Positions 11,297 through 31,126 of a stretch of DNA of 64,000 nt are shown piece by piece. Both the position numbers and the translations under genes were made by a program. A model generated the notes under the pieces. That model saw only the letters and a list, made by a program, of their open reading frames with translations, was not told the origin of the DNA and did no database searches. The number at the start of each line of letters is the position of its first letter. Position 1 is the first letter of the stretch. Source of the stretch: an uncultured virus (IMG/VR IMGVR_UViG_3300020049_015491) (taxonomy: Duplodnaviria; Heunggongvirae; Uroviricota; Caudoviricetes); the IMG/VR virus record IMGVR_UViG_3300020049_015491. One strand, 5' to 3'.

Positions 11297-11312
11297 TCAC
11301 CTCATCAGATCT

Positions 11313-11851: not shown

Positions 11852-12084
11852 TTGATCCCCACCGTTGTGCAATGGTTATTGAAAAACCGTCTCCTCCTAA
11901 TGCTTCCCATGTTTTTCCAGACCACGGCAGCAAATTTTTCTTTCAGCATCCATCGTAGCTCTACTCCATCCCAGGCCTCTGGGACTTTTCCGGCATCTAT
12001 CTCGGCGTAAATTTCATCCCGAATAGCAGATACCAGGCTGTTGACCAATTCTTTCTGAACATCGGGTTTCATCCAATCCCTCAT
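11848..12084 (-). CDS. Hypothetical phage-type protein
   Basis: ATGA coupling; GKVPEAWDGVELR. Confidence 0.65.
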   Translation of the reverse strand: MRDWMKPDVQKELVNSLVSAIRDEIYAEIDAGKVPEAWDGVELRWMLKEKFAAVVWKNMGSIRRRRFFNNHCTTVGIK

Positions 12085-12248
12085 TCAAATCCATAGGTGC
12101 CGACCGTATTTCCATTAATGTCTCTCAAGGTGCCTGTCCAATGGCCAGTATCCATCAAACGGGCGCACTCCCGGATAATCCGAGTCAGCTCACCAGGATT
12201 ATCCTTGAAAGCGGCATTGCCGCCAACTATTCTTATGACGAAATTCAT
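12081..12248 (-). CDS. Small hypothetical protein (55 aa, not in track)
   Basis: MNFVIRIVGGNAAF...LRDINGNTVG; ATGA overlaps at both ends. Confidence 0.6.
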   Translation of the reverse strand: MNFVIRIVGGNAAFKDNPGELTRIIRECARLMDTGHWTGTLRDINGNTVGTYGFE

Positions 12249-12412
12249 TGTCCCACCTGATTTACCAGGTATATTTCAACAGTCGGAACCAAGAACCTCA
12301 TTCCGTTATCAGCCAGGATGATGGCTGCCTTCCCGGTGAACGATTCCAGGACGCCATACTGCCATTCATCGAATAACCGGAAATATACTGAATCACCCAA
12401 TTGTAGAACCAT
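12245..12412 (-). CDS. Small hypothetical protein (55 aa, not in track)
   Basis: MVLQLGDSVYF...; ATGA overlap with the next gene. Confidence 0.55.
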   Translation of the reverse strand: MVLQLGDSVYFRLFDEWQYGVLESFTGKAAIILADNGMRFLVPTVEIYLVNQVGQ

Positions 12413-12413
12413 C

Positions 12414-12647
12414 TCAATCATCTTTCCTTAAATTTCCCAGGTCTCGGAGACCATAATTCGTCTCGGCGGTTCCAGCCATCTTCATGGCCCGCTTGGCACC
12501 AACATGGAGCGAACTGAGGGCATCTTCGATGGTCAAAATACCATTTATCACCTGGCAGATATCATCCGTTTCCAGGCCATTATCAAGCATTCTGACGGCT
12601 CTTTTTACCATTTCGGTTTTTTCAGATATATACTCTGCATTATACAC
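12414..12647 (-). CDS. Hypothetical protein
   Basis: Tightly packed operon. Confidence 0.55.
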   Translation of the reverse strand: MYNAEYISEKTEMVKRAVRMLDNGLETDDICQVINGILTIEDALSSLHVGAKRAMKMAGTAETNYGLRDLGNLRKDD

Positions 12648-12851
12648 TCAAAACCACTCTCCAATTTCGTATATTCTCTTATCGAGATATGGTACAATAC
12701 CCTCGAACCCGTAGACCTTGCCTTCTACGATGAATAGGCCACCGTAGTCCTCATCACAGCCAAGCTCTTCAAGCATAGGTTTGACAACCTGGGAGTCGGT
12801 GTAAAGCTCGACTCCGGGGATGTCGTTTATGTCACGTACAAAAACGTACAT
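12648..12851 (-). CDS. Hypothetical protein
   Basis: Tightly packed operon. Confidence 0.6.
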   Translation of the reverse strand: MYVFVRDINDIPGVELYTDSQVVKPMLEELGCDEDYGGLFIVEGKVYGFEGIVPYLDKRIYEIGEWF

Positions 12852-13112
12852 TCAGAACACCTGCTGAGAGATTCTAATCATCCTACCGTTGGCAAAGATC
12901 TCCTTTTCGACCCAGATTTGGAGGAGATCGCCTTCGCAATCGTTGGTTTTGATCTGAATGCCCATGATGGCCGGCCAGGCATCACGACTAAGATCATTGT
13001 TGACCTCACTCCACTCTGCTATCCAGGCCACGATAGCCTTTTTGTTTGATAACTTGCGAAGAATATTGGTCACATCGTTGAGATCTTCAAGATCTTTTTC
13101 AATTGGACCCAT
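12852..13112 (-). CDS. Hypothetical protein
   Basis: GAGGTGA SD before ATG 13112 (MGPIEK). Confidence 0.6.
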   Translation of the reverse strand: MGPIEKDLEDLNDVTNILRKLSNKKAIVAWIAEWSEVNNDLSRDAWPAIMGIQIKTNDCEGDLLQIWVEKEIFANGRMIRISQQVF

Positions 13113-13247
13113 TGTCGTCACCTCATCACAGCCTCCCAGGAGAAGTCTCCCATCAACCATGCTGGCTCCGGATCGCCCAGAAACAACCAGGAGGGGAGTA
13201 TTTTCCGGAAGACCCTATAGAATATTCATCAGCTCTTTTATCATCAT
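13113..13247 (-). pseudogene. Small gene with in-frame TAG at 13215-13217
   Basis: MMIKELMNIL*GLPENTPLLV resembles the common phage MTVKELIExLQxLPED N-terminus. Confidence 0.5.
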
Positions 13248-13291
13248 AACGGTTCCTTCGGAGATAATAATTTCCTACAATGCATTGCCAG

Positions 13292-13474
13292 TCCGTTAAA
13301 ACCGTGGACTTCGATCTTTACACGTCTACCGCCCCGCTTCTCATCGATAGTAGTGAGTACCAGGCAAGCGGGTCCAGAAGCTACGCCTGGGTTATCCAGG
13401 GGAAGCTCGCAACCAACGCGGTCCAAGGAGACAAGCCCAACGAGGCGATTGTCTGTAGGTACGACGAGTTCTGA
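13292..13474 (+). pseudogene. 3' fragment of a gene at the left edge of the insertion
   Basis: ...VIQGKLATNAVQGDKPNEAIVCRYDEF* has no own SD or start inside the block. Confidence 0.5.
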
Positions 13475-13580
13475 AAACAGTTAAATAGTAGTAAGTAGTT
13501 GTGGTGGATGATGTCACTTGTCCGACTCTCCGTACTCACCGGGCATGTGACATCCCCTAATCATTTTTGGTGGTGTGAAC

Positions 13581-14417
13581 ATGGACGATATTAAAAGGTG
13601 GTTTTATCATAAGGACCCTACGAAACCATATAGCACAAGCGTGTGGTGTGGCGTAGAGGCTACCGGTGTAAAGGATTTCGTGGAGGGTGACATGACTGAG
13701 GGCATGTCTGGTAACAGTATGCACGTTACCCATCGCGTGGTTAGACTGGAGGCAAAAAACATCAAGATTTTTGCAAAGTCTTCCACCAACGAGTATGCCC
13801 GCGCCTCCCAAGAAATTGTTATCACAAACGGCATCATCGAGGACATGTACGGAGCGGCATATGTCGGCCCGCACAAGCAGCAAGACGTTCTTGTGGGCGC
13901 ATTCGTGCAACAGACCGTTGGGAGGGCCGAAGGTGAGAGCATCGTTGTAGATGCGGACGGACTGGATTTCACCAGGGCTGCAAACCCAAGGGCCAGGATA
14001 GATACTCGCATAGAGAGAGGCGGGTCACTCGATTTGTACTCTGCCAGGGCACAGACTGTCAGGAAGCCAGGAAACACCAGCGCAGAAGCAATCGTAGAGT
14101 CCATGCGGGCAAATGGACAGATCCGGGAGTTCATTGACGCCAGTTCGAGGGATGGAGACATCTCCTGGTGCGTGCTGAATCTTCTGAGAGGCGAGATCTG
14201 TGAGGAACCGGTGATGGACGACGTTCCTTGCCGGGCATTCGTGGATAATGCCGATTGGAAGAATACCAGTACTACCCTCTCAGCGATCGTGGATTCAAAG
14301 AGCTATGGTGGCGACTACAGAACACATCATAAAATCCCGCACGTCCCACTGAAATCCACGTACAACCAACTGAACCAGGCAGGAAAACAGTCGATTCTTT
14401 TGAGGGCAATAAGTTAA
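13581..14417 (+). CDS. Hypothetical protein
   Basis: ~278-aa ORF with GGTG SD; upstream hairpin GATGTCAC...GTGACATC. Confidence 0.7.
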   Translation: MDDIKRWFYHKDPTKPYSTSVWCGVEATGVKDFVEGDMTEGMSGNSMHVTHRVVRLEAKNIKIFAKSSTNEYARASQEIVITNGIIEDMYGAAYVGPHKQQDVLVGAFVQQTVGRAEGESIVVDADGLDFTRAANPRARIDTRIERGGSLDLYSARAQTVRKPGNTSAEAIVESMRANGQIREFIDASSRDGDISWCVLNLLRGEICEEPVMDDVPCRAFVDNADWKNTSTTLSAIVDSKSYGGDYRTHHKIPHVPLKSTYNQLNQAGKQSILLRAIS

Positions 14418-14451
14418 ACCTCATCTCGACAACATTTTTTTAATAATAGCC

Positions 14452-14973
14452 ATGACGAAATCCTTTGCTGTGATTATGATTATGATGTTGACTTTGCCGG
14501 TCACATCATCGATGGAACACAAATGTGATTTGGTTGGAAACGGGAAACTGGATATGTCATTCGATGGTGGATGGGGGCAAACTTATGTCCGCGGGAGTGG
14601 TGATATCGCGTTGGGGCAAATAGCCAACGCTGACGGGAAGTCATTTTCGGCCCTGACCTTGATTGATTCTGATCTAGGGAGCATTCGGACCAAGACCCCA
14701 GAGTATGATGGAATGTTCGTAGATGTGAAAAATCTCAACGGCTCTATGCAGGTCAGTAGGACGGAAACCATCGAAGAGGAGGCGACAAAACACGGCCTGA
14801 ACGTGTTGTTGAATCTTTCCGGAAATGGGTCAATAGACGAGTCCATGTTCATGAAAGATACCAGATCAAGACCCGCGGTGTCGGTTCTTGAGTTCGCTGG
14901 AGAGTTCAACTACACAAGCATCCTGGACATGACAGAATCGGAGATGTGGACTACCACCAAGAGACTTTTGTGA
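14452..14973 (+). CDS. Secreted hypothetical protein, likely homolog of 40957-41541
   Basis: Signal peptide; GSIRTKTPEY vs GKIRLRTPEY. Confidence 0.65.
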   Translation: MTKSFAVIMIMMLTLPVTSSMEHKCDLVGNGKLDMSFDGGWGQTYVRGSGDIALGQIANADGKSFSALTLIDSDLGSIRTKTPEYDGMFVDVKNLNGSMQVSRTETIEEEATKHGLNVLLNLSGNGSIDESMFMKDTRSRPAVSVLEFAGEFNYTSILDMTESEMWTTTKRLL

Positions 14974-14979
14974 GGATCT

Positions 14980-15300
14980 ATGAAAACCAGTTTTAACGTG
15001 ACGAATAAGGCAAACGCTAACGCGACCCCTCCTGGCGAGGAGTGCTCATCGTGTGATGACTGTAAAGATGGAACATCTGATCAAGCGTGTGGGTGCATCC
15101 CACAGGACCTGGAGCATCGCGTGATGCCAACCGGGTCGTTCAAGCCTGTGGGCCAGGAACGGCGTTACATCACAACCACTGGAAAACGACTCACTAGGAA
15201 GGATTTCATGGAATGGTCTAGAAAAGAGGGCGCACAGGTGGACCCCATAGTATGGTTCACCGAGATGGGGCATGGTCCGGTCCCTGACGATGTTACATGA
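14980..15300 (+). CDS. Cys-containing hypothetical protein, likely homolog of 40619-40960
   Basis: CxxC, GCIP, PTG...RYITTTG...TRKDF...VDP. Confidence 0.65.
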   Translation: MKTSFNVTNKANANATPPGEECSSCDDCKDGTSDQACGCIPQDLEHRVMPTGSFKPVGQERRYITTTGKRLTRKDFMEWSRKEGAQVDPIVWFTEMGHGPVPDDVT

Positions 15301-15337
15301 ATTACCTTTAAATACTTTTTTCAACAATTAATCGCGC

Positions 15338-15787
15338 ATGGCACACGACGAATTAAAGCAGGGAAAGGGAAGACGCGGCGCGCCTCTCCCGGACGAGAAA
15401 GAGTATGCGGAGATGTACAATGACATCAAAAAGAACTCGCATAGCGACAACTCCCTGAGCCTCCAGGATATAGTTGAAAATTCCGCCGTGGTAAATGCAC
15501 TTGCAGATATTCTCATTATAGATGGCGTAATAAAAGAAAAGGATGGCATCGATCCCATAAACAGGATAGACAAAAGTGCCGATTTGTATGGTGGGGTCCT
15601 AGCTGGATTGATAATGATCTTAAAAGAAGATGGGATAATACCAGACCTGGAATCCAAGTTGAACGATGGCATAATAGCCGCGCACCGGACCATGATGCAC
15701 TTCGGGTCGCGGGTGGTGAACTTGGATATCATAGTCAATTATAGGCAGGAATTTTACAAAGCCATTCGAGCTTCCAGACGGAAGTGA
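15338..15787 (+). CDS. Hypothetical protein
   Basis: TTTAAATA box at ~15307 upstream. Confidence 0.65.
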   Translation: MAHDELKQGKGRRGAPLPDEKEYAEMYNDIKKNSHSDNSLSLQDIVENSAVVNALADILIIDGVIKEKDGIDPINRIDKSADLYGGVLAGLIMILKEDGIIPDLESKLNDGIIAAHRTMMHFGSRVVNLDIIVNYRQEFYKAIRASRRK

Positions 15788-15791
15788 TAAC

Positions 15792-16319
15792 ATGTCCATT
15801 CCCGAAAGGAAATACTACTGGATGGGCTATACATCATTGGGTAGAATTGTGCCGCAATTCACGCGAGATGGGACTGAACAACTATGGACTGATGTCCTTT
15901 ATAATTACGAAATCACTCGGATTTATTGGATGCCATTTGACCTGGACTCCGCAGCATGTGCAAGGCTGTCCCCGTCGCTAACGTTTTGGCCTCTGGTATC
16001 AAATTCCCCTGCTATGTGGCTTGACATCCCAAAGAACTCCATCGGGGTCCCTATCTGCACTGAGGACATAGAGCAATATGATTATTGGCACTGCGAGATA
16101 TGTCACGGTGATATGTTTTGGCATGGCGACGATACTCCCCTGGTGTGCCCAGCATGTGGTAGCAAAAACGAATGGGTTTGCCAGGAGCGTTTCAACCAGG
16201 TCCATGAGAGAAACGTCCCAGGTAGATTTATTGACGGTGATTCTGGTCTCTTCAAGCTTCTGAATGAGGCGTTCACCCAGATGGATGGGCTTGCAATAGT
16301 TGTCGTCCTTGCGGTATGA
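15792..16319 (+). CDS. Zn-ribbon protein, truncated at 16184 and running into antisense sequence
   Basis: CEIC...CPAC; downstream of TTGCCAG the frame is the reverse of the split minus-strand gene. Confidence 0.55.
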   Translation: MSIPERKYYWMGYTSLGRIVPQFTRDGTEQLWTDVLYNYEITRIYWMPFDLDSAACARLSPSLTFWPLVSNSPAMWLDIPKNSIGVPICTEDIEQYDYWHCEICHGDMFWHGDDTPLVCPACGSKNEWVCQERFNQVHERNVPGRFIDGDSGLFKLLNEAFTQMDGLAIVVVLAV

Positions 16320-16437
16320 CCACACGTACCAGACTGCGGCACGTTCGATCTTATGTTCGCTCATCGCGAGACAGAATGAGTCTGGGAGGGCAGAATCACA
16401 GCCCCCATTCAGGCCCGTCAGTTCCATTAATCGTCCT

Positions 16438-16686
16438 TTACTGACCATGTTTATCACTCCTCAAAAGATCACCCAGGGTGGTTGCTTTCCATTCTGGAGG
16501 AACTTCCCATCCTTCAGGAAGAGGTTCGAGACATTTCCAGGTTCGGAAAGGCTGCTGGGGAGTTTTCCAGCTACAAGATCGGCATCGGGTGTTGTAGATG
16601 GAGCCGTAATGGTTGGTCGTAAATACCTCCACGGCTCCACAATTTGGGCATTCGTAGCGTTTTGGGGTGGCTTTTCCGGTTATCAT
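16438..16686 (-). CDS. Small Zn-finger protein
   Basis: CPNC...CRSC. Confidence 0.65.
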   Translation of the reverse strand: MITGKATPKRYECPNCGAVEVFTTNHYGSIYNTRCRSCSWKTPQQPFRTWKCLEPLPEGWEVPPEWKATTLGDLLRSDKHGQ

Positions 16687-16816
16687 TCTTCATCCTCCTC
16701 AGTCTCTCCGTGATAGTCACCAGATGTGTAGCCTTCACTTATAAGGCGTGCAATATGCTCCAAATCAGAATCAGATGGGATACCATCTCCAAAATCTATG
16801 TTCCACCAGGGCATAA

Positions 16817-17065
16817 TTACCTCGGAATATGAGTGTACGCTTCTGCAGTTATGGGTGAGTCCTCATCAGTCCAGCCACGACCACAATGGCCGCATTGCCA
16901 TTCAAAGCAGGATGAAGCGCCTATGCGGGCTATTTTCTGAAGTGGTCGAACGTACATCCAGGCATAAGCGGATATGCCGCCGCAGCCGGGACAGTACTCC
17001 AAGTCTCCGGAAGCAAGCAGTTTGGAGACTGGCAATGGCCATAAGGCCCGGAGATAGATGCTCAT
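16817..17065 (-). CDS. Small Zn-finger protein
   Basis: CPGC...CGHC. Confidence 0.6.
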   Translation of the reverse strand: MSIYLRALWPLPVSKLLASGDLEYCPGCGGISAYAWMYVRPLQKIARIGASSCFEWQCGHCGRGWTDEDSPITAEAYTHIPR

Positions 17066-17195
17066 TTTATCAGATCTGGTCGATAGATTTCTTTACGAGT
17101 GGTTGCATTCAGTTGTCGTTCTATCCAGGATGAAACAAAGTGGTGCTGGCGGTTCTGGGTGTTTGGATTTTTGCCCTTTGAACCTCTCTTTTTGC

Positions 17196-17729
17196 TCATA
17201 GTTTCACCACTGAGAAGTTCAATTCCTCATCAGTGAAACCGATTTTGCGAAGGCTTGCTTTCAGTTCGATGAGGATAGCAGCGTCAGGGGTGTCCAGATC
17301 AGGGTCATCAGATTCTAAACCCCATAAGGACTCATATTCGTGGGCAATGAAGGTTTTGCCGTTGATCTCGATTGCGAGGGTGGCATCGTAGACGATGCCT
17401 ATAAACTCCCAAGTACCCTTGTACCATGCTATTGCCCGTTTGAGGTCTTGCTGGGCATAGTGGAATACGGCTTTTTTAAGGCTACCGTATTCGGCTATGA
17501 CCTTAGCTTTTTCCTCATCAGTTATACGTTCCCAACCATCAAGTTTAACCCAGTCACTGGTGCTGGATTTGAAGTATGGGGCGACGGGAAGGTTCGTGCG
17601 AAGAACACCGCTTTCCCAATGGTTAGTGAACTTGCCATAATCTGATTCAAGCATGCCTTGATTATCCAAATCAGGCTCAACCTTCCGGGTTACGCTGGTT
17701 ATCTTGATTCTTGCGTCTACCATTTTCAT
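17196..17729 (-). CDS. Hypothetical phage-type protein
   Basis: WEFIGI...ESLWGLESD motif; ATGA coupling. Confidence 0.7.
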   Translation of the reverse strand: MKMVDARIKITSVTRKVEPDLDNQGMLESDYGKFTNHWESGVLRTNLPVAPYFKSSTSDWVKLDGWERITDEEKAKVIAEYGSLKKAVFHYAQQDLKRAIAWYKGTWEFIGIVYDATLAIEINGKTFIAHEYESLWGLESDDPDLDTPDAAILIELKASLRKIGFTDEELNFSVVKL

Positions 17730-18280
17730 CCCTCGATATTGCTCAATTTACCGTAAATTTGGCCCAGGTCTTCTACGGCTTTGGTCACTTCCAGATCAGT
17801 TGCTTTGTGATCAGGATTGCTCTTCGGACGAAGAAGGTCGATGAGATCACGGATACGGTATTTGAGGATATCGACCTCATCACGCCGAAGGTATTTCTTG
17901 ACTCCCATGCCCCAGGTGAAATCGATGAGAGCGTAAGCGATGGTATCACCCAGATATTCTCGGAGCATATGCTTCCTGGCGAGGTATTGGCTGCCGTGGA
18001 AATGGATCGTTATATCCAGTTCCTTATATATGGTGCCGTTCTGGAAATATCGGCCATTTTTGATTATGACCGAGAAATCCTGCCAGCCTTCGTACATGCC
18101 ACAGTCATTCATGCAGTGGAAGCTGTTTCGACAGGTGATATGATGGGCGTGACCTTCAATCACCCAATCTGCATCGATGCCACTGCCGTGAGGTAATAAG
18201 TCAGGCAGCTCTTCAGCCCAAGCGGGCAGGTTTACTGAAATGGTTTCACGTACTCCGAACATAAAATCATCCTTGTTCAA
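17726..18280 (-). CDS. Hypothetical phage-type protein
   Basis: LPHGSGID...FHCMNDCGMYEGW. Confidence 0.7.
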   Translation of the reverse strand: MNKDDFMFGVRETISVNLPAWAEELPDLLPHGSGIDADWVIEGHAHHITCRNSFHCMNDCGMYEGWQDFSVIIKNGRYFQNGTIYKELDITIHFHGSQYLARKHMLREYLGDTIAYALIDFTWGMGVKKYLRRDEVDILKYRIRDLIDLLRPKSNPDHKATDLEVTKAVEDLGQIYGKLSNIEG

Positions 18281-18494
18281 CTATTTGGCCGGTGCGAACG
18301 GCCATTATCAAATATTCACCATTGCTGTCAACGGTTGTTGCTTTTTGAGCATGGAAAAGTTTAACGTCATCAGTACTGTTCAAGTAGCGCCAGGTTTCGC
18401 TGCCCTTTTTCCGAAAGTAAAAATCATAGGTTAGACGGGCTTTTGGCTCTATGGTTTTTCGTGGGGTGTCGGCATAGTGATCAACAAATTTCAT
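18267..18494 (-). CDS. Hypothetical protein
   Basis: GAGGTGA SD. Confidence 0.6.
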   Translation of the reverse strand: MKFVDHYADTPRKTIEPKARLTYDFYFRKKGSETWRYLNSTDDVKLFHAQKATTVDSNGEYLIMAVRTGQIVEQG

Positions 18495-18498
18495 AATG

Positions 18499-18738
18499 TC
18501 ACCTCATCAGAGAATAGCGGAATCCGTTCACGATTACGATTTTGGGAGGAGCTGGAATTGGTCGGGCTATGTGAAACGGCGTGCTTAAATCGTGTTTGGC
18601 CTTATAGACCTCCGGAATTGCTCCGGAGATGTACCACTCGCCGGCTAAGGGTTGACGATATTCGCCTGTGGATTCAAAGAATTCTTCGCATAGCGGCGGA
18701 AAAGACGCAGCCGTGCGGTATTTGATGCCTGGCCTCAT
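18499..18738 (-). CDS. Hypothetical protein
   Basis: GAGGTGA SD; TGEYRQPLAGEWYISG. Confidence 0.65.
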   Translation of the reverse strand: MRPGIKYRTAASFPPLCEEFFESTGEYRQPLAGEWYISGAIPEVYKAKHDLSTPFHIARPIPAPPKIVIVNGFRYSLMR

Positions 18739-18896
18739 GATATCACCTCATACTGACCTATTCATATTTTCATGGTGTTTGAGCATTATCAGGATGTTAT
18801 TTAGACCGGATAATGCATCTTCGGATAGCGGTTCGCTCCAGATTAGGGCTTGAAGGCGAGTGCGGGCGTCTTCAATTTCGCTGGGAGACCAAATCA

Positions 18897-19355
18897 TTAA
18901 TCCTCCAGGAGGATGGAGCCCCAGGATTTGTTTTTGCGAAGGCTCTCGATTTCCTCATCAGTGAGGGAATTCAGCTTTTTAAATTCTGATATGGGTATTT
19001 TTAGAGAGTAATTCACGTAGTCGGAATCCTCGTGGGGAATGCCCTCATCAAGGATACCAAGAAGGGCTCCTGTTGGAGATGCAGCTTCAACATCCAGGGT
19101 GTTAGTCATGGACCAAATCAGTGGGATTTTGTAGATTTTGCTGGTCATCTGGATTTTAGATAGCTCTTCGATGGGGATTTTAGAACCTCGCCAGTTCACG
19201 TAGATAGGATGGAAATTGCCGATTTGGTGGCCGTCACCCATTCGGGTGAAGGTTTGGCCAAGTTTGTTGTCGAAAATAGTTACCTTAGACCGGGTATGGT
19301 AGCCGGCCTGATCGAGATTGACGGTATCGTAGATGGTGATTTTGTATCTGTCCAT
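18897..19355 (-). CDS. Hypothetical protein
   Basis: GGAGGT SD before ATG 19355, preceded by a hairpin at 19377-19410. Confidence 0.65.
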   Translation of the reverse strand: MDRYKITIYDTVNLDQAGYHTRSKVTIFDNKLGQTFTRMGDGHQIGNFHPIYVNWRGSKIPIEELSKIQMTSKIYKIPLIWSMTNTLDVEAASPTGALLGILDEGIPHEDSDYVNYSLKIPISEFKKLNSLTDEEIESLRKNKSWGSILLED

Positions 19356-19412
19356 TGTTGAACCTCCAAAACTTGCCTGTGAGCCGTAAGGAGGCTTGCG
19401 GCTCATCAGGGT

Positions 19413-19595
19413 TTAGGAAAGTTTTGCGCTGCCGGCACCGTTGGGGAAGATAACGTGGCCGGTGCGTTCTAGGGTTAGGATATGACCGGAGAACCGTTTT
19501 AGGTTGAATTTTTGGGCGGTTAGGGTTAGTGCTTCGGATATTGTTGATGGGTAATAGATCTCCTCATCAGATGGGAATTTGAGGATGAGCTTCAT
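19413..19595 (-). CDS. Small hypothetical protein
   Basis: ATGA coupling. Confidence 0.55.
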   Translation of the reverse strand: MKLILKFPSDEEIYYPSTISEALTLTAQKFNLKRFSGHILTLERTGHVIFPNGAGSAKLS

Positions 19596-19801
19596 TCCTC
19601 ATATTCTCCTACCGACTCAACGGTTTTGAGAGCACGGACTTCGATCCAGGATTGACTACAACAGAGGCAGTCAACTTTCATCCTGATTTTGTCGTCAAGG
19701 CAGAGAATTGGTTGGGATGCATCTAATCGCGACTCGTGGCAGTATGGGCAGGTGTTGGGCTTTTTTCGAAGCTTTGAAATGAGATTAGGAGGAAGAGTCA
19801 T
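19592..19801 (-). CDS. Small Zn-ribbon protein
   Basis: CPYC...CLCC. Confidence 0.6.
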   Translation of the reverse strand: MTLPPNLISKLRKKPNTCPYCHESRLDASQPILCLDDKIRMKVDCLCCSQSWIEVRALKTVESVGEYEE

Positions 19802-20174
19802 CGTTAGACCTCACTGGGAGAGCTTGCAATTCTGCAATTAAGTCGTCATCAGAGAAAGCTATGTGGCCTTCTGGGACTGGAACTGTGAAGATTCGGCTGA
19901 AGAATTCTTCGCTGATCACGATTAGGTTGCAGCTTTTTGGGTTGATTAGCATTATTCCGTGGGAGAGATATTTCTCACGGCAATCGGGACAAACCAGGGA
20001 CGGTTCAACGTAGGACCGGCGCTTAAAGGGTTGGGTGAGCTTGCCGTCCTCAACTTTGGTGCTCATCACGACGCCGGTATCTTGATTGCAAATTGGGCAG
20101 GTAAGAAGGGCGACGTGGGATGGGTCGAAGTAGCGGTCATCGGATTTGTCGATGATTTGAGATTTAATTGGCAT
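19785..20174 (-). CDS. Zn-finger hypothetical protein
   Basis: CPIC...CPDC; GGAGG SD. Confidence 0.7.
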   Translation of the reverse strand: MPIKSQIIDKSDDRYFDPSHVALLTCPICNQDTGVVMSTKVEDGKLTQPFKRRSYVEPSLVCPDCREKYLSHGIMLINPKSCNLIVISEEFFSRIFTVPVPEGHIAFSDDDLIAELQALPVRSNDDSSS

Positions 20175-20548
20175 AAATCCTCCACTGACGAATGAGTTTG
20201 CTCATCACACTATGCGAAAGAGCGTATGAAAGCTCTTCAAAGAGGATAATTTGAATTCGAGACATGGTTACACCTGGCAGAATAGAATCATGATTAGAGT
20301 AAAAAAGGCTACTGACAATGCGCCGGCATATCTAGCGTAAAGGTTGAGGTTTTTGGAGAGTCGCCTCATCAGGATGTCGGTTTTGGACTTTTTTGGGGCC
20401 ATCTAGGTGCCTCCCATATGGGCGAGGATTTTGGCAAGGATAATTAAGAGAAGAAAGAGGCGAAGGGGATTCATGATTCGACCTCCATGCCCACTAATTC
20501 GCCGTCATCATAGAAGTAGATGATGCCATCAATAAGCTGGCTGGACAT
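20164..20548 (-). CDS. Four tandem micro-ORFs (25, 23, 44, 33 aa)
   Basis: 20471-20548, 20403-20474, 20268-20402 and 20164-20265; starts abut or overlap the preceding stop; GGAGG or AGGTG SD for the last three. Confidence 0.5.
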
Positions 20549-20938
20549 TTAGGCCACCAGCTTGAGAGCGGATTTGGTGGCCTCATCAGTGGGCTTGGCC
20601 CAGAAGGGGGCAGCGTTGCCGAAGGGGTTGGCCGGAACATGGCCGTAGTAGTGGAGCCCCAGGGCTTTGTATTGGGCGATTGTGGCCTCATCAGGCTTTT
20701 CAGCGTTTTGAATGGCAATCATGGCCTTGCCCCGGAAATCGTATTCGAGGACCGTGGTCTTAAGGGCCTGGGTGGGCTTAGGCGGTTTGGCCGTGACGGC
20801 CTTTTCAAGGACAGCCAGCTTCGCGGGTGTTTTGGCGCTGTTGGCGAAGATTAGCATGGCGCTGAGGACTGCCTCATCATCGATTTGGTCGAGTAAGGTT
20901 ATGATTTTCTTTCTGATTGCGGTTACTTTCTTGGACAT
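20549..20938 (-). CDS. Basic hypothetical protein, first gene of the leftward operon
   Basis: GAGGTGA SD; Lys/Ala-rich. Confidence 0.7.
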   Translation of the reverse strand: MSKKVTAIRKKIITLLDQIDDEAVLSAMLIFANSAKTPAKLAVLEKAVTAKPPKPTQALKTTVLEYDFRGKAMIAIQNAEKPDEATIAQYKALGLHYYGHVPANPFGNAAPFWAKPTDEATKSALKLVA

Positions 20939-20949
20939 TTTCGTTCACC

Positions 20950-21690
20950 TCATATTGGTTTTTCCCGGTATGGTTGAGTCGGGAAATTATAATAAAGTTC
21001 GACAGCCGAGGCCACGGACTCCCATTAGTAGGTGGCCTGTCGTCAGTTCGGCTCATCAGGAGATATGCCTTGAAATCCTTTCTTGGGAGTAGGGATTTAG
21101 GCAAAAATGGGTTGTGTGAGAATTCATATCTTAGGCAAAGACTCATCAATTCGCCGTCATTTTTGGTGAGATGGAGTCTCTTGATGACGGTTACACTCAG
21201 TGCCTTACATCCTCATCAGTCACTTTTGAGGAATCAGCCTAATCAGGTGGGCTTAATCGGTACTTTCAGGTTGTCGGGAGGTTACTTTTTTCGTCAGGCT
21301 AGCGCTATGGGTGGGCGCTACTGTGATCATTCCTATTCCCTTTGACGGCTCGTCACTCTGGACTGGTCCGTGACTCTGAAAGGATTTAAGTGGCTCATCA
21401 GGCCCTTGAACTTTGTGTTTTAGGGAAACACTAGCCGTTTTTCGGTGTTTCGCACCGACATTGAGCCCTAACAATAGCGTGCTGCGGCTATCGATTTATT
21501 AGGGACGGCTTTTACCCTTTGCCCATTGCAGAGCCGAAGACTTTCGCTTTTGGCGTTCAAGGGCTTAATCGGTAACAGAAAAGGCTATTTCCATCATTCG
21601 CCTTTTTTGTAGCCGATGCCTTGAGATTGCTTTTAGATCACCTTCCTTTTTTGTGTCCGAGAGGTTCATACTTCGCCTTTCGGCAATCCC
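20950..21690 (-). ncRNA. Candidate large structured non-coding RNA or leader (~740 nt)
   Basis: No credible ORF; many helices including a 10-bp long-range pair 21402-21411/21555-21564; directly downstream of a BRE-TATA. Confidence 0.55.
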
Positions 21691-21707
21691 TCCTTAGCTG
21701 GTGAGAA

Positions 21708-21720
21708 TATAAACCTTTCT
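21708..21720 (-). promoter_or_regulatory. Archaeal BRE-TATA promoter
   Basis: AGAAAGG-TTTATA on the minus strand. Confidence 0.7.
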
Positions 21721-21729
21721 CAACAATGA

Positions 21730-23250
21730 TGTCCGGAGATGTGGATTGATGGGTAAATGTGTACGTTGATGTATGTTTTTGTACACTGGGTGGGAGATTG
21801 ACGGCGCGGAACGGCGCGAGAGGTGAGAGGAAAATGGGAGAAAATGGGGCGACGGATGACGGTTTTAGGGCGGCGCGATGGCGGCGCGATGGGTGAAATC
21901 GGTAACAGTGAAGGGGTTAGACGTGCAGTAATATAGGGGAAATGGAAAAATGGGCGAAATGATGGCGACGGATGGCGGTTTTGATGGGATGGATTGAAGG
22001 GTATATTAAATATACGGTAAAATATGAAAAATATATGTATATATATGGTGAAATATATGGGATGGACTGGGAGATATGGGAGATGGATAAAAATCGATAT
22101 GGGATAAACGGAAATGAAAAAAAATTAAAAAAAATGAAAAACATTAAATAATTACAAAAGCTATAATAGGGGTTTTTTCCGATAGAAAAAAGAAATGATC
22201 TTAGGACTATGGGCGACGTCGCCGCCCAGAAATGGCCTGAGAGTCCATTAGACCGGGCCGGGCCGGTGAGAAGGTGAAAGCCTGCCCATATGGGAGATAT
22301 GGCCTATAATGGCTACTAGACCATTTCTATGACCATATGTGAGCATAAGCTGGAGAGTATGGCCGGCAGTCTTCTCGCGCGACGGGCCGGGCCGGGCCGA
22401 GAATGTACATTTTTTTACGTTATCGTTGTTGCATGTATGCATATAGATATTCTTATCTCGCGATGCATATAAATGGATCTATCGGTTTATGGTTAAATCA
22501 GTAGCCAGAGACAGGTTCATATGAACAATAAGAGAGGGAAGGACGAAAATGGACACATGTGTCCATTGATACATGGCCATAAAACGCTATGCGTGGCCAG
22601 CAATACCCTAAAACCAACATTGAGAGGACAAAATACATTAAGTGATACGGTATTCATATGAGCCCTATATCAGCACTACTGTACACATTTGGACATTGTG
22701 GCCTTATCTTGGTTATCAATGGACATATTTGGGCATTGGTGCCGGGATTTGAGCAGAGACGTACTATCTTGGCCAGAAATGGCCAGATACCTACAGGGGT
22801 GTTTATATATAGACAGAAAAATAAAAGAGAGGGCCGAACAGGGAACCCGCAGGTTCCCATTCCCCCCAACGGGGGGATTGAGGGGGGAGTTGCTAGTTGC
22901 AACTAGCACGACAAACAACCCAGGACAGCCAAAGCCAACATGACTCCCAGGACCCACACAGGATAAAGCCACTAAGCCCTAGGACCACAGATCACCCAAC
23001 ACCCAGGCTCCCGGAGGACCCCGGGACCCAAAGTGGGCCTAACGCTAGTGTCCCACAGATCACCCAGTCAACCTATCAACTATCCCAATCATCTCACTCA
23101 TAACATATCTCTAACATAATCTACTCAATAAAATCTTATATATCTATCTCCCCCCACTCTATTATAGAAAATTGAATTAATTATCGTTTTTAGTGAAAAA
23201 AATTGAAAAATCTCAAAAAAAGTAAAAACACTTCCACAGCTATCGATTAA
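21730..23250. other. Non-coding, palindrome-rich GC-skew switch region
   Basis: Plus strand G-rich left of ~22.9 kb and C-rich to the right; perfect palindromes at 22548-22567 and 22891-22908. Confidence 0.6.
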
Positions 23251-23254
23251 CCTC

Positions 23255-23743
23255 TCAACTCTTTTTTCCAGGTTCCTCCGACCCGTGCTCACCTACCGAA
23301 AACACCAATATCGTTATGTCAGAGATATCCAACCACTGAAACTCAATCCCCGTCTCCCGAAACATGACATATACCCTCGGTATTTTCGACCAGGCCAGAG
23401 TCTCCTCCAACTCCTCCCCAGCCATCGCTTCACAGCACTTATCGTCCCCGTCACCCCTATTATCCAACAATTGCTCGCATGCAATAGCCTCAGACGGGAT
23501 CAACCCCCCAGCCATTACCAGTTTTCTCGCGTCCACCTTCCACACTTTTCCTACCAACTCAGGATCTAGTCGCCATACTCGTTTCCAGGGTATCATGCCC
23601 TTTATCCCCTTGGTCGAATATGCCAAACCCGTCTCCGTTGCCTCAATCTCCACCAATCCCTCGCTGTACCGCAATGCCTTCGCAGCCAGTCTCAAAGCCC
23701 CAACTTTGATCCCAAACATTGTTTTGCTCAAATATTCTTCCAT
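23255..23743 (-). CDS. Hypothetical protein
   Basis: 162-aa ORF, G-rich coding strand. Confidence 0.6.
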   Translation of the reverse strand: MEEYLSKTMFGIKVGALRLAAKALRYSEGLVEIEATETGLAYSTKGIKGMIPWKRVWRLDPELVGKVWKVDARKLVMAGGLIPSEAIACEQLLDNRGDGDDKCCEAMAGEELEETLAWSKIPRVYVMFRETGIEFQWLDISDITILVFSVGEHGSEEPGKKS

Positions 23744-23757
23744 TCATATACCCCCCT

Positions 23758-24003
23758 TCATCCCACCAGCCTTTCCAGAACCAATCTCTGCCTGATCGAC
23801 CATACCTTTATCCCATCCTTGGGATACCAATACCCGTTCTCCAAATGAATCCTCCCATCCGTTCCCAGTTTCGTCACCACGCTTTCCCCTACCATCTGGG
23901 TCGCGTCCCAACAGCCACTTACGGACTCCCTAATCCTGACTCTACTCCCAACCACCAGCTCACCCATACCGCGTTCTGCGGAACTCGGTACTCTGTCAAT
24001 CAT
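23758..24003 (-). CDS. Small hypothetical protein
   Basis: GAGGTGA SD before ATG. Confidence 0.5.
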   Translation of the reverse strand: MIDRVPSSAERGMGELVVGSRVRIRESVSGCWDATQMVGESVVTKLGTDGRIHLENGYWYPKDGIKVWSIRQRLVLERLVG

Positions 24004-24167
24004 CCTTCTCCACCTCACATCTGTTCAACGAAACGATCTCAGTCACCATACAATACATCACTTTCCCAATCCTCTCAGCCTCGTCACAGTTCTCCGCCTC
24101 AACCGTCTTCCAGCACAAAACACTACTTCCAGGCCACTGAGGCACCCTAATCGCAAATCTCGGCACT

Positions 24168-24614
24168 TCAATCCACCCATGCCCCGATATACCTCAGCCA
24201 TCTGTAGATCTGCGTGGCCGAAAGCTCCGTCTGCTTGCCCAGCGCCACCATTATCGCCTGGTCGTCCATATCCGAAAGATCCATTCCCTTCATGTCATGG
24301 TTCGGTTCCGGAGCAGCCAGGAACGGTGCCATCCTGCAAATTATCGGCCTGCTGCTATAAATCGAACACCCATCCCGATAAAACTCACATGGCCTCACCT
24401 TCTTGAACGTCATTCTCCGTTGGCCTGCAGGATGAGGAGCCAGGTACTTCTTGGCCACCTCTTTCGGCGTACTATGAAACCTGTGAGCCAACCTGAACGT
24501 ATCCTCCACCACTACATCAATCACTCCGGGCCTGGTGCAGCAATGACCGCACCTCCCACACACGAACCGGGCTTGCGCGATGGCCCTAGTTTTCCAGCCT
24601 GCGTTCCACGTCAT
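24168..24614 (-). CDS. YkgJ-family CxxCxxCC (Fe-S/Zn) protein
   Basis: CGRCGHCC...CEFY...CSIYSSRPIICRMAPF. Confidence 0.85.
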   Translation of the reverse strand: MTWNAGWKTRAIAQARFVCGRCGHCCTRPGVIDVVVEDTFRLAHRFHSTPKEVAKKYLAPHPAGQRRMTFKKVRPCEFYRDGCSIYSSRPIICRMAPFLAAPEPNHDMKGMDLSDMDDQAIMVALGKQTELSATQIYRWLRYIGAWVD

Positions 24615-28408: not shown

Positions 28409-31126
28409 CAACTTTGGAGCAATATCAATAAAATCGCTCTTAATTAACCATCCCCTAACTGCTATACCATTCAGCTTGATTTTATATTTAATTCTCCCAT
28501 CATCTGGTTGAGCTATTAGCGCCCCCAGCTCAAACAGTGCTCTCCCCATGCTCCTTTCTGTAGGTATCTGCTCGAAGATGCCACTTTTAGTCAGCCTCTC
28601 AAGCACCACCAATGGGAGTACAAACAGCCCTTCTGGCATCCATTTACCAATAGTGATGTTTCCTCCACCGCTTATAACAGCCGTGGTATTTTGACCTTGG
28701 ATCATCATAGGGGTAGAACTGATCATTTCCTTCAAGCCAGTTAAAAAGCGCGAGGTCTCAGTCTCCTCGCTTACCACCTCCCCCTGCTCGGTCATTACCG
28801 AGTCAAGTGCCTTAACGAACTCGTCTCTACGTTCGACAAATACGTCTCCAAGCGGCGATACTTCCAGCAAAGCCCAGATGCTTTTCAGCATAGCAAATTT
28901 GCTTGCAAGCCTTCCTGTATTCGAAAATCCTCTTTGAGCAAACTTCTCACTTATGACATTTCGATACTCGTGATACTCTTTTCCAAGCACCTCTTCGGTT
29001 TCGTGCAAGAACTTGATCCAATGCCATCCCACGTATGGGAGGTGGTCGCGCACCTGGCGCAGCTCCTCTGCCATCTCAGACGCATGTTTCATTTCCTCCC
29101 TGTTCAAAGTCCAGCTCAGGCCCAACACCCTGGCCGAGGTGCTTGACTCTGACGGTGCAACCTCCCCAGTAATGATTGGCGTGCTGTGGAAGGCAATAGT
29201 CTCCCTGGCATTGCCCTCCCTGTCACTTCGGGCTTTCTCTCGCCCCTCCATGACTCCATGGATCATTGACACATATGCCTGGATGTCTCTTTTATCAACC
29301 GATTTCAGGTTATCATAAAGCTGTGGTAAAAATCCAGCAGCCTTAAAAATATCCATCTGGGCGTTGATGGTGGACCCATTGCGTCCAGCCTTCAGCATCG
29401 GCCCATGCAGATATTCTTTCCCCCAGAACCCCATGGCATATGTCGCGCAGACGGTCTTAAAAGTCCCTGATGGCCCCCATATCCCAAGCGCGAATTTCTC
29501 ATCTGGCAGCCATCTCGCGACGGCTGGAGCCCCCAGGGACGTTGCTGCCACTATGCATGCCAATTTGTGGATGCTCATGAATTTTCTCAAAGCATCTTTT
29601 GCCTTCTCCAGATCTCCATTTTCAACTTCTGCAGGAATGGATGGATTTAGCTTGAAAAATGTGTCGAATTCCGTTTCATACCCTGGAATCATGGGTGTAT
29701 TTTCATTCCATCTCGGGCTTGTAACTTTAATTGTATGTTTAATATGATTTGTTATAAGCTGAACCTGCTCGAAATCCAGCTCTCCCATCCGGTTCATGCC
29801 ACCAAATGCATTTAGTACTGCAGCCTTGAACTTCTTACTGTCTGCCAGGGATGCTGCCGGCAAGTTGAATACCACTTCTCGACCATCGCGAGACCCAACT
29901 CCTCTGAAAATGTACTCAGTGGTGTCCTCATTTTTCAGTTCCGTGTCGATCCAGATGACACAATCGCTTATCCAGACTGCCACTTTTTTCATAGCATCTT
30001 TTTTGCTGGGTTCGATTCTCACCAGCGCTCCAGTTGGTTCAAACCGGCCAATTTCCCAGAACTTACTATCCAGGGTCACTGATTTTACTGCCCGATCCAG
30101 ATCCAACTTGGCTTCTCTCTCACTGATTAGACCTTTCGTAACCGCATACTGCAGGGTCTTTTCCAGTGCCGTCCGGTCTTTTAAGACGCCGGATTTTGCT
30201 TTCTCCCAGGGGACTGCCCCGCACTCGCACGCCAGCCAAACCCATGCATCTCCACCCGCATTCAACCCGTTATGCATGTAGCAGTAGACGTTCATGGTGG
30301 GGTTCACCACTAGGTTTTTCCCAGTAGTACTCCCAAGGGTTGGGTGCGGCCCCAGGAGCTGCCCCCCGGAGGAGACGAAGCCATTTGTATTTATAACATC
30401 GAGAATATGAATTGCCGGAAGACTTGATTCACTGGATGGATTGTTTTTATTTTCCTCATGAGGAACTTCTCTGAGCATCCAATCCGCAACTGTTTTAACC
30501 AATGGAGCAGTTCTATCTTCCACCGGGAAGCATAGATCCTCGATCCACACTCCAGTCAGTGACAGATGCCTCCCGGATTCATAAAGTTCAAAAGAATTAA
30601 AAACAGGTTCGCCTTTATTAAATTTCGCTAGCGATGTTGGTTTTGTGGCAAAAATGCGTTGTTTAGTTTCGTCTGGTATGTCCTCTTGGGTGCCTTGCCC
30701 TTCTAATTTATCCCTGCCTATGCTGCCCATCACGAAAAATCTAATACCGCACTTCGAAGGGCTTACTTCCGTGTAGAAAGGAAGCACCTTCATGATGAAT
30801 TCCTCAGCCCAGGGGCTTAGCATTCCTGTCTCAGGGTCTCGACAGCAGTCCAGGTCTCCCCCGATGAGCACAGGCCTTGGTTGCCCGGATTCCCGGTTCA
30901 TTAGGAACCCAAGCGCTTCAACTTGTCGGGGCTTATCCTGGAACATGACAATTTCTCGCCGCTCGATGGCGGCCAGAGCTTCCTCAAAAGACAACCAGTT
31001 GCCCTTATTTTTCGACCATCCTCTTGACACGAATCCTTTCTTTCCTCGCACGTATGGTTGCTTTTCTACGCGAACGCAAAACTGGCGCAGAGACCGCAAG
31101 CTATCAGGAATATGGCTGTAATCCAT
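28379..31126 (-). CDS. Primase-polymerase (AEP, NrS-1-like) fused to a DUF927-like helicase
   Basis: GDLDCC, YTEVSPS, HPTLGSTTG, Walker A GPSGTFKT, LYDN, IITGE. Confidence 0.8.
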   Translation of the reverse strand: MDYSHIPDSLRSLRQFCVRVEKQPYVRGKKGFVSRGWSKNKGNWLSFEEALAAIERREIVMFQDKPRQVEALGFLMNRESGQPRPVLIGGDLDCCRDPETGMLSPWAEEFIMKVLPFYTEVSPSKCGIRFFVMGSIGRDKLEGQGTQEDIPDETKQRIFATKPTSLAKFNKGEPVFNSFELYESGRHLSLTGVWIEDLCFPVEDRTAPLVKTVADWMLREVPHEENKNNPSSESSLPAIHILDVINTNGFVSSGGQLLGPHPTLGSTTGKNLVVNPTMNVYCYMHNGLNAGGDAWVWLACECGAVPWEKAKSGVLKDRTALEKTLQYAVTKGLISEREAKLDLDRAVKSVTLDSKFWEIGRFEPTGALVRIEPSKKDAMKKVAVWISDCVIWIDTELKNEDTTEYIFRGVGSRDGREVVFNLPAASLADSKKFKAAVLNAFGGMNRMGELDFEQVQLITNHIKHTIKVTSPRWNENTPMIPGYETEFDTFFKLNPSIPAEVENGDLEKAKDALRKFMSIHKLACIVAATSLGAPAVARWLPDEKFALGIWGPSGTFKTVCATYAMGFWGKEYLHGPMLKAGRNGSTINAQMDIFKAAGFLPQLYDNLKSVDKRDIQAYVSMIHGVMEGREKARSDREGNARETIAFHSTPIITGEVAPSESSTSARVLGLSWTLNREEMKHASEMAEELRQVRDHLPYVGWHWIKFLHETEEVLGKEYHEYRNVISEKFAQRGFSNTGRLASKFAMLKSIWALLEVSPLGDVFVERRDEFVKALDSVMTEQGEVVSEETETSRFLTGLKEMISSTPMMIQGQNTTAVISGGGNITIGKWMPEGLFVLPLVVLERLTKSGIFEQIPTERSMGRALFELGALIAQPDDGRIKYKIKLNGIAVRGWLIKSDFIDIAPKLPVPEIPKPG

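What the first reader, a model, noticed from the sequence alone, without database searches (positions are those of the whole stretch)
20950..21720. ~740-nt densely structured non-coding RNA candidate directly behind a strong promoter
Seen: BRE-TATA at 21720-21708, then ~740 nt with no credible ORF before the first SD-led gene. The region holds GCC-GAAA-GGC and UCGGUG-CGAAA-CACCGA hairpins, a perfect 10-bp long-range helix (21555-21564 with 21402-21411) closing a multi-branch domain, and a 14-nt direct repeat TACCGATTAAGCCC (~21250 and ~21561). Interleaved complementary pairs 21139-44/21174-79 and 21154-60/21184-90 give a possible pseudoknot. Further hairpins lie at 21300-21320, 21066-21103, 21005-21053 and 20962-20985, with A-rich linkers and about eight UGAYGA-like motifs. 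Known: bacterial phages carry large structured RNAs (GOLLD, ROOL); I do not recognise this sequence as one of them. Inference: a new large viral ncRNA, ribozyme or antitermination leader for the ~13-kb leftward operon.
Basis: partly seen in the sequence, partly recalled or inferred. Interest (0 to 1): 0.8.

Follow-up and report, generated by a model that had tools for sequence, protein, structure and literature searches.

The report
Large knotted RNA of methanogen viruses
A family of viruses that probably infects methane-making archaea carries, behind its early promoter, a gene for a roughly 700-base RNA that makes no protein, keeps an intricate knotted fold while half of its letters change, and matches no catalogued RNA family.

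Summary
Real. Window 21684-21004 (minus strand) is a conserved, non-coding, highly structured element behind a conserved archaeal BRE-TATA promoter. I found 12 distinct full-length copies and one partial, in five lineages; the four full-length lineages are 47-56% identical. It is single-copy and syntenic in 7 of 7 related IMG/VR viruses. Helices keep pairing while the letters change (one domain: 88% paired, 20 of 24 pairs with two-sided change, 0 of 500 shuffles). Three pseudoknots or kissing loops covary; a fourth is invariant. No Rfam, tRNA/tmRNA or group II domain-5 match. In one metatranscriptome both contigs laid lie inside the RNA body (weak hint of a discrete transcript). Best reading: a stand-alone ornate viral RNA, cut from the early transcript, that works like GOLLD/ROOL as an RNA assembly acting as scaffold or decoy. 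It is not a member of either family, and function is untested. Against: the G-U versus A-C strand test is weak (26 vs 15, p=0.06). Two earlier notes of this scan describe the same family in other viruses.

The parts
21707..21721 (-). Archaeal promoter: BRE-like purine run and TATA box
   Evidence: Same TATA, spacing and downstream CTAAG block in 9 of 9 copies printed, from four lineages
21004..21684 (-). Conserved RNA body, about 680 nt. Start at G21684 is inferred (29 nt below the TATA, at a pyrimidine-purine step). Relatives run about 610-900 nt, mostly through 5' insertions
   Evidence: nhmmer and alignments; RNA contigs end at 21655 and 21677
21675..21684 (-). P1, 5' terminal hairpin (variable)
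   Evidence: different hairpins at this place in relatives (by eye)
21638..21642 (-). PK1 5' strand, pairs with 21169-21165 in the P16 loop across about 470 nt
   Evidence: 59 of 60 cells paired but almost invariant, no two-sided change: inferred
21568..21617 (-). P3 hairpin; its loop 21595-21590 pairs with 21175-21170 (PK2, loop-loop)
   Evidence: PK2 72 of 72 cells paired with one A-U to C-G change; P3 stem differs in sequence between lineages
21433..21510 (-). Three-way junction P5 (21510-05/21438-33), P6 (21504-496/21474-66), P7 (21458-53/21447-42)
   Evidence: P5 60/60, P6 83/84, P7 79/84 cells paired; 12 of 19 pairs compensatory; cross-lineage swaps pair 65% (P6) and 62% (P7)
21237..21403 (-). 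Long stem P8 (21403-397/21243-37), P9, P10 (21382-76/21269-63) whose apex carries the conserved core
   Evidence: Cognate duplex energies about twice swapped or shuffled for P8 and P10; P9 weaker. A read variant at 21241 turns a G-U into G-C
21346..21369 (-). Most conserved block; largely unpaired; its last bases may pair with the 3' end (21008-21004)
   Evidence: Its 20-nt centre is identical in 11 of 12 full-length copies and rewritten in G498; two changes in L089. 3'-end pairing 44 of 48 cells, no covariation, fails in G498 at this register
21324..21329 (-). Self-complementary hexamer in a linker, candidate intermolecular contact
   Evidence: 10 of 12 copies; absent in L083 and L085
21300..21320 (-). 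P13 hairpin; C-rich loop 21311-21307 kisses the P18 loop 21025-21021 (PK3)
   Evidence: PK3 60 of 60 cells paired, with an A-U to C-G change between lineages; 5-9 bp depending on copy
21117..21232 (-). 3' core domain: P14, P15, P16 (loop is the partner of PK1 and PK2) and H-type pseudoknot PK4 (21145-42/21120-17)
   Evidence: 88% paired, 20 of 24 pairs with two-sided change, 0 of 500 shuffles, slid controls 30-49%
21010..21104 (-). P17 (21104-21065) and P18 (21037-21010)
   Evidence: P18 47 of 48 cells, 2 of 4 pairs compensatory
20962..20996 (-). A/U-rich linker (20996-20986) and hairpin P19 (20985-20962): candidate 3' processing or termination site
   Evidence: Similar linker in window, L082-L085, G498, L090 and L097, followed by a hairpin by eye; replaced by a tRNA-like minihelix in 6 of 8 clade-B copies
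20549..20951 (-). SD (20951-20946) and 129-aa basic protein gene of no known family, always downstream of the RNA
   Evidence: 12 homologues; 61-349 nt behind the RNA in the 11 copies measured; no Pfam or PHROG hit; fold search inconclusive

Best explanation
A new family of large ornate viral RNAs in 60-77 kb viruses of methanogenic archaea (host probably Methanothrix-like). SHOWN: a conserved promoter; a non-coding body whose helices covary; three covarying long-range knots (PK2, PK3, PK4) and one invariant candidate (PK1); one copy per virus at the head of the early region. INFERRED: host RNA polymerase makes it as the first part of the early transcript. It is then cut free at its 3' side, at the A/U-rich linker in most lineages, or by host RNase P at the tRNA-like minihelix in clade B. 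It persists as a stable RNA packed by invariant unpaired adenosines. Its loop-loop pairs, and the self-complementary hexamer, form partly between chains and build an RNA-only oligomer as GOLLD and ROOL do. GUESSED: the particle works in trans early in infection as a scaffold or decoy that holds a host factor (RNA-processing, translation or defence machinery).
For: Covariation. 7 of 7 IMG/VR viruses found through an unrelated gene (the exonuclease) carry it. One copy per virus, none in 105 and 151 cellular genomes, positive control worked. 107 invariant columns; 57 fall outside the helices drawn, most of them adenosines. Independent of the first gene: the 3' end lies 61-349 nt from the conserved gene, with small ORFs inserted in L085 and G498, and no conserved helix covers an SD. 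Two different 3' flanks both look like processing signals. In run X7, 2 of 2 contigs laid on 18500-24500 fall within 21055-21655, and X17's one contig covers 21525-21677. In GOLLD and ROOL, kissing loops first found by covariation proved to be intermolecular bridges (PMC12286853, sections 6-7).
Against: No oligomer, partner or function was tested. RNA evidence is contigs only: no strand, ends or level. The runs were chosen by a query spanning this place, X1 covers 29 of 30 bins (probably DNA), and X14 has a contig running from the RNA's 3' end into the ORF (20855-21042). The strand test is weak: G-U 26 vs A-C 15 distinct events, p=0.06, and 14 vs 9 in covarying helices. The antisense strand has the lower folding energy in 8 of 8 copies, though an A-rich sense strand would produce that. 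The self-complementary hexamer is missing in one lineage. All knots can also close within one chain.
Confidence: 0.45

Rival explanations
1. Cis-acting 5' leader: the nascent RNA folds on the transcribing polymerase and makes it resistant to termination (as recalled for HK022 put or EAR), or shields the early mRNA, so that the long early region is read through.
For: Always directly behind the promoter and ahead of the early genes. A contig in run X14 crosses the 3' end into the first gene. No intrinsic terminator pattern at its end (bacterial-type scan).
Against: Far larger than such a role needs. PK1 and PK2 can close only after about 500 nt are made. The 3' flanks look like cut sites, spacing to the genes is free, and X7 covers only the RNA body.
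Confidence: 0.2
2. RNA subunit of a ribonucleoprotein with the 129-aa basic protein encoded right behind it, for example an RNA-controlled host-takeover or anti-defence factor.
For: Co-occurrence: 9 of 11 metagenome loci found with the protein have the RNA upstream, and the 2 misses are weak 56-residue matches. 7 of 7 viruses carry both. The C-terminal alpha/beta domain has weak likeness to eIF1, MotA and PC4 folds.
Against: Linkage is expected from synteny in one virus family, and the metagenome loci were selected by this protein. Fold matches are all Z <= 5.3 or E >= 0.15, which is background. Binding was not tested.
Confidence: 0.13
3. A new large ribozyme (self-processing or acting in trans) whose active site is the conserved 24-nt block held by the pseudoknots.
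For: Size, multiple knots and a near-invariant single-stranded block, as in known large ribozymes (established knowledge).
Against: The block is rewritten at several positions in G498 while the scaffold is kept. No Rfam ribozyme or intron hit. No domain-5 geometry in any of the 12 window, clade-A and clade-B rows scanned, and two unrelated, non-homologous chance hits in L165 and L089. No joints in the contigs.
Confidence: 0.12
4. A replication or packaging element: a pre-primer RNA or single-stranded DNA structure beside the origin, or a phi29-type packaging RNA.
For: It lies next to an A/T-rich, repeat-bearing stretch at a GC-skew switch (22100-23200). The G-U/A-C test does not firmly separate RNA from DNA. 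Loop-loop pairs could build a ring.
Against: Transcription points away from the A/T-rich stretch. The virus encodes a primase-helicase. Unpaired invariants are adenosines on the promoter strand. RNA-library contigs hold it. It sits in the early region, far from the structural genes.
Confidence: 0.08
5. Chance structure in a long untranslated leader, or a mobile-element remnant.
Against: Covariation far above shuffles and slides; single copy and fixed position.
Confidence: 0.02

Closest known systems
ROOL RNA (PMC12286853, section 6 read)
   Same: About 660 nt, virus-borne, many helices and pseudoknots, kissing loops seen by covariation, function unknown
   Different: No Rfam match; archaeal-type virus and promoter; no tRNA genes in the window; assembly not tested here
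GOLLD RNA (PMC12286853, section 7 read)
   Same: Up to 800-900 nt; variable 5' part on a conserved 3' part (43-198 nt before PK1); association with tRNA-like sequence (minihelix in 6 of 8 clade-B copies)
   Different: No Rfam match; here the 5' and 3' halves are tied by PK1 and PK2; the tRNA-like piece lies after the 3' end and is not a full tRNA
Group II and circularly permuted group II introns (PMC8637638, passages read)
   Same: Size and long-range contacts; GUGCG near the inferred start in some clade-B copies
   Different: No domain-5 triad-plus-bulge hairpin, no Rfam hit, no reverse transcriptase among the 49 window proteins scanned
tmRNA (recalled)
   Same: Several pseudoknots plus a tRNA-like acceptor and T arm without an anticodon arm
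   Different: ARAGORN finds none; the tRNA-like piece is formed locally outside the conserved body and is missing in most lineages, including this window
MALAT1/mascRNA-type 3' end formation by RNase P at a tRNA-like tail (recalled)
   Same: A tRNA-like element directly behind a long non-coding RNA (clade B only)
   Different: Analogy only; unrelated sequence and domain of life; cleavage not tested

Membership tests
GOLLD | Match to the family covariance model | tested here: not met
   No hit at gathering score in the window, nor at E<=10 or E<=5 in four relatives; that Rfam 15 holds GOLLD and ROOL models is recalled
GOLLD | Often beside tRNA genes in bacterial phages and prophages | tested here: not met
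   0 tRNA genes in the window and in 11 loci; only a tRNA-like minihelix in 6 copies; host archaeal
ROOL | Match to the family covariance model | tested here: not met
GOLLD/ROOL-like ornate RNAs (as a kind) | More than 500 nt, non-coding, extensive covarying structure with pseudoknots, virus-borne | tested here: met
GOLLD/ROOL-like ornate RNAs (as a kind) | Discrete, highly abundant transcript | tested here: inconclusive
   Contigs only; X7 2 of 2 contigs inside the body, X1 covers everything
GOLLD/ROOL-like ornate RNAs (as a kind) | Self-assembly into an RNA-only oligomer | not testable with these tools
   Candidate contacts PK2, PK3 and a palindromic hexamer
Group II intron / CP group II | Domain 5 with AGC triad, 5 bp, 2-nt bulge | tested here: not met
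   definition from PMC8637638 passages
Group I intron, RNase P, SRP, known self-cleaving ribozymes, phi29 pRNA | Match to Rfam models | tested here: not met
   (best rows E 1.9, 7.7, and 0.44 outside the RNA)
Any ribozyme | Catalysis | not testable with these tools
   No joints in contigs, which cannot show absence
tmRNA | tRNA-like domain from 5' and 3' ends plus tag frame | tested here: not met
Box C/D guide RNAs or arrays | Conserved C and D boxes at regular spacing | tested here: not met
   UGAYGA 7 in the window but 1-3 in seven relatives; only a chance-level sR2 row outside the region
MITE / mobile remnant | Multiple dispersed copies, terminal inverted repeats | tested here: not met
   One copy per genome; no terminal repeat pair among the 25 longest inverted repeats shown

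The most novel reading that the evidence does not exclude
An RNA-only nanocage or ring made by an archaeal virus that is probably tailless with a jelly-roll capsid: an independent invention of the GOLLD/ROOL architecture outside bacteria, matured by host RNase P or an A/U-specific nuclease. It either captures host machinery at the start of infection or carries a new catalytic activity in its conserved core.
Probability: 0.35. Interest if true: 0.88.

Novelty: new variant of a known kind. Interest (0 to 1): 0.7.

Why it matters
Few classes of large ornate RNA are known, and the ones in the paper I read (GOLLD, ROOL, OLE) are bacterial and of poorly understood function. This is an unrelated family from archaeal viruses with a covariation-supported model, natural size variants of about 610-900 nt and defined candidate inter-chain contacts. 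It makes directly testable whether cage formation is a general solution for large viral RNAs, a question PMC12286853 leaves open. It also supplies a ready cryo-EM target, and points to RNA-based host control in viruses of the methanogens of anaerobic digesters.

Tried and rejected
No whole genome is held for the window. No meaningful DNA match in 50,697 phage records (10 chance rows of 22-32 nt); the best PolB hits are about 25% identical haloviruses. The 14-nt repeat gave 81 IMG/VR matches, all chance; the best (L007) is an unrelated phage terminator. Single-protein scans of IMG/VR with three window proteins and alignment A1 found nothing. Genome-contig pattern scan: 31 of 32 hits were chance; the real one (L117) is a 2.4-kb contig in an alphaproteobacterial MAG, probably misbinned. 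Pairing of the core with the P14 loop fails in L085 and by eye in L089 and G498; a P14-loop pairing with an upstream segment is no better than shuffles. No long antisense match to the virus's own genome in 3 of 3 tested, best 12-16 nt. No CRISPR-spacer evidence for the host in 105 genomes searched with window 4000-23999 only; two of four short hits were checked and lie in no spacer array. One search used a structure string that I had mis-registered by one column in two helices (64% paired); one search is the corrected count on the same alignment. The 'reader PK' row was also off by one; one search holds the right register. Plain MAFFT mis-registers several helices, so one search uses motif anchors, with shifts of up to 1-2 nt for five helices (P3, P13, P14, P15, P16, and PK4 which needed none) allowed equally in the swap control. 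The 129-aa protein has no family, Atlas or significant fold hit. No terminase or HK97 capsid was recognised among the G002 proteins scanned, which is not proof of absence. The RNA runs with small word shares that I did not lay (X10-X13, X15, X16) are not used as evidence.

Full report
1. Observation. The region reads on the minus strand. The 741-nt stretch folds better than 20 of 20 dinucleotide shuffles (z -3.6). Rfam gives nothing at gathering score in the whole window and only two chance rows (E 1.9 and 7.7) in a permissive search of 20700-22000. ARAGORN finds no tRNA or tmRNA.

2. Setting. The window carries the archaeal chromatin protein MC1, family B polymerase, helicase, exonuclease and a primase-helicase. 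It is largely syntenic with two IMG/VR viruses of 70 and 76 kb. The cellular genomes with the closest MC1 among 401 sampled from the phylum have mcrA (5 of 5 tested) and lack mtaB (0 of 5). That fits Methanotrichaceae by established knowledge; the host is inferred, and no spacer match was found. A 396-aa protein present in 5 of 5 family members tested resembles PRD1-type capsid proteins by language-model features. Its low-confidence model (pLDDT 41) matches jelly-roll folds at Z up to 7.8. A tailless jelly-roll virus is therefore a lead, not a result. No homologue of that gene was found among the window's ORFs; by synteny it would lie just beyond the window's end.

3. Homologues. The 129-aa gene behind the region has 12 relatives. 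A metagenome scan with their alignment returned 11 loci. Six hold the full element upstream, three hold the part that the contig reaches, and two weak 56-residue matches hold none. A 20-nt core pattern found 6 IMG/VR viruses, the same 6 as the protein alignment. To get a denominator that does not depend on the element, I searched with the exonuclease gene about 5 kb away. That gave 7 viruses, and the seventh (G498) has a diverged copy and the gene. A scan of 185,579 species genomes gave 32 pattern hits, one real (L117, a small contig probably misbinned). After removing identical rows (L088 = L083; L086 and L087 = L085) there are 12 distinct full-length copies and one partial (L089) in five lineages. 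The four full-length lineages are 47-56% identical to each other. A covariance model of the 3' domain finds one copy per virus, none in 105 genomes of the probable host family and none in 151 of its class, with a working positive control.

4. Structure. Helices were read from the alignments and tested three ways. (a) Duplex energy of cognate strands against strands swapped between lineages and against shuffles, 11 copies: for example P6 -10.5 / -4.3 / -4.7, P7 -9.1 / -4.3 / -2.3, P14 -8.6 / -2.6 / -4.0, P16 -10.8 / -4.1 / -4.1, PK3 -14.4 / -8.8 / -8.6 kcal/mol. P9 and PK4 separate poorly by energy. (b) Motif-anchored pair tables, 12-13 copies: P5 60/60, P6 83/84, P7 79/84, P16 85/91, PK2 72/72, PK3 60/60, PK4 52/52 cells paired, with two-sided changes in all of these. 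PK1 (59/60) and the core-to-3'-end pairing (44/48) show no two-sided change and remain inferred. (c) The pair-count tool on an unedited MAFFT alignment of the 3' domain, 11 sequences from all five lineages: 88% paired, 20 of 24 pairs with two-sided change, covariation 0.59 against 0.20 in shuffles (0 of 500) and at most 0.22 when slid. The structure was derived from these same sequences and eight copies are close kin, so the numbers are not probabilities; but the changes separate lineages that are only half identical.

5. Architecture. A variable 5' part (43-198 nt before PK1) is followed by the PK1 strand, the P3 hairpin and a three-way junction. Next comes a long stem whose apex holds a 24-nt conserved block and a hairpin with a C-rich loop. 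Then comes a 3' domain whose P16 loop pairs with both PK1 and the P3 loop, an H-type pseudoknot, and a last hairpin whose G-rich loop kisses the C-rich loop. Of 107 invariant columns, 57 fall outside the helices drawn in that call, and most are adenosines, as expected for A-minor packing. Of four strain variants inside the body seen in RNA-library contigs, two turn wobble pairs into Watson-Crick pairs, one is unpaired and one breaks a terminal pair.

6. What is not conserved. The 14-nt repeat is specific to the window among 8 copies tested, and the UGAYGA count drops to 1-3 elsewhere. Half of the proposed pseudoknot pairs fully in only 3 of 13 copies and competes with PK2 and PK4. The 20-nt core centre, identical in 11 of 12 full-length copies, is rewritten in G498, which weakens the case for a fixed catalytic centre.

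7. Is it an RNA, and a separate one? For: the promoter and its spacing are conserved in 9 of 9 copies printed. 17 of 20 listed runs hold the stretch or part of it, 8 of them on record as RNA. Of the 4 runs laid, X7 has 2 of 2 contigs inside 21055-21655 and X17 one at 21525-21677, with nothing else in the 6 kb laid. Against or neutral: these are contigs chosen by a query over this place; X1 covers 29 of 30 bins and probably contains DNA; X14 bridges the 3' end and the gene. It gave G-U 26 against A-C 15 distinct events (p 0.06; the helix set includes chance helices) and 14 against 9 in covarying helices. The antisense strand folds to lower energy in 8 of 8 copies. RNA on the minus strand is likely but not proven by covariation alone.

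8. 3' side. The body ends 61-349 nt before the conserved gene, with small ORFs between them in two lineages. No conserved helix covers a ribosome-binding site, so a translational switch is unlikely. The window and most lineages have an A/U-rich linker and a hairpin next. Six of eight clade-B copies have instead a 7-bp acceptor stem plus T arm joined by a 10-nt linker. Two unrelated flanks that both look like cut sites suggest the RNA is released from the early transcript; this is inference.

9. Mechanism. Most likely (0.45) a stand-alone ornate RNA that assembles through its loop-loop contacts and acts in trans as scaffold or decoy. In ROOL and GOLLD, kissing loops found by covariation turned out to be inter-chain bridges of RNA-only cages (PMC12286853, sections 6 and 7 and passages read). 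Rivals: cis antitermination or stabilising leader 0.2, ribonucleoprotein with the 129-aa protein 0.13, new ribozyme 0.12, replication or packaging element 0.08, chance 0.02. That the element is a real conserved structure I put at about 0.97, and that it acts as RNA at about 0.9.

10. Known families and print. It works like GOLLD/ROOL in size, complexity and viral setting but fails their models, and fails the tests for group II introns (PMC8637638, passages), tmRNA, C/D guides and MITEs. Eight literature searches (listings and abstract starts seen) turned up no description of this RNA or of this virus family; the library lacks most subscription journals. The IMG/VR survey PMC10690425 (passages read) reports only candidates of 29-151 nt; its supplements, not seen, could hold fragments. 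Two earlier notes of this scan describe the same family in other viruses (e1-6218010, e1-5897802). They are not independent evidence, and the abundance claimed in the first could not be checked here.

11. Verdict. A real, previously uncatalogued family of large pseudoknotted viral RNA in archaeal viruses: a new variant of a known but functionally unexplained kind. Interest 0.7.

Noticed in passing
L095 about 3368-3410 (+); also L093, L094, L096, L098, L117: tRNA-like minihelix (7-bp acceptor stem with an A-U first pair, 10-nt linker, 5-bp T stem with a canonical T loop) directly behind the RNA; absent in L090, L097 and the window; not found by ARAGORN or Rfam.
   Followed up: partly
L165 about 1980-1912 (-); same place before the 129-aa gene in L090, L093, L095, L097: A second conserved leader hairpin just ahead of the SD of the 129-aa gene, with compensatory changes in L097; absent in the window.
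   Followed up: partly
window 22100-23200: A/T-rich tracts, short repeats and inverted repeats at a GC-skew switch, with blocks conserved in L085, L088 and L090: candidate replication origin.
   Followed up: no
L138:8838-10025 (G002 28847-30025): Conserved 396-aa protein, candidate jelly-roll major capsid protein; would make this an unusually large tailless archaeal virus family. Low-confidence model.
   Followed up: partly
L137:74-979 and L140:8799-9947 (G002): Reverse transcriptase and an Mtd-domain tail protein on either side of the contig junction: probable diversity-generating retroelement, far from the RNA.
   Followed up: no
window 5738-6244 (-): Virus-encoded MC1 chromatin protein with a Lys/Ala-rich N-terminal extension, shared by the family.
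   Followed up: partly
window 13575-16319 (+): Rightward gene block inside the leftward early region; one of its ORFs (14980-15300) is 66% identical to a gene on a contig of cellular genome G436, a possible host-derived or shared mobile insert.
   Followed up: partly
window 368-1546, 2774-3910, 31362-32904, 34813-36407: Several ORFs that look like IS200/IS605 TnpB and TnpA by their N-terminal sequence (label recalled, not scanned).
   Followed up: no
window 47896-58768 (-): Very large Ser/Thr-rich (2525 aa) and PEGA-domain (1102 aa) proteins conserved in the family, of unknown role.
   Followed up: no
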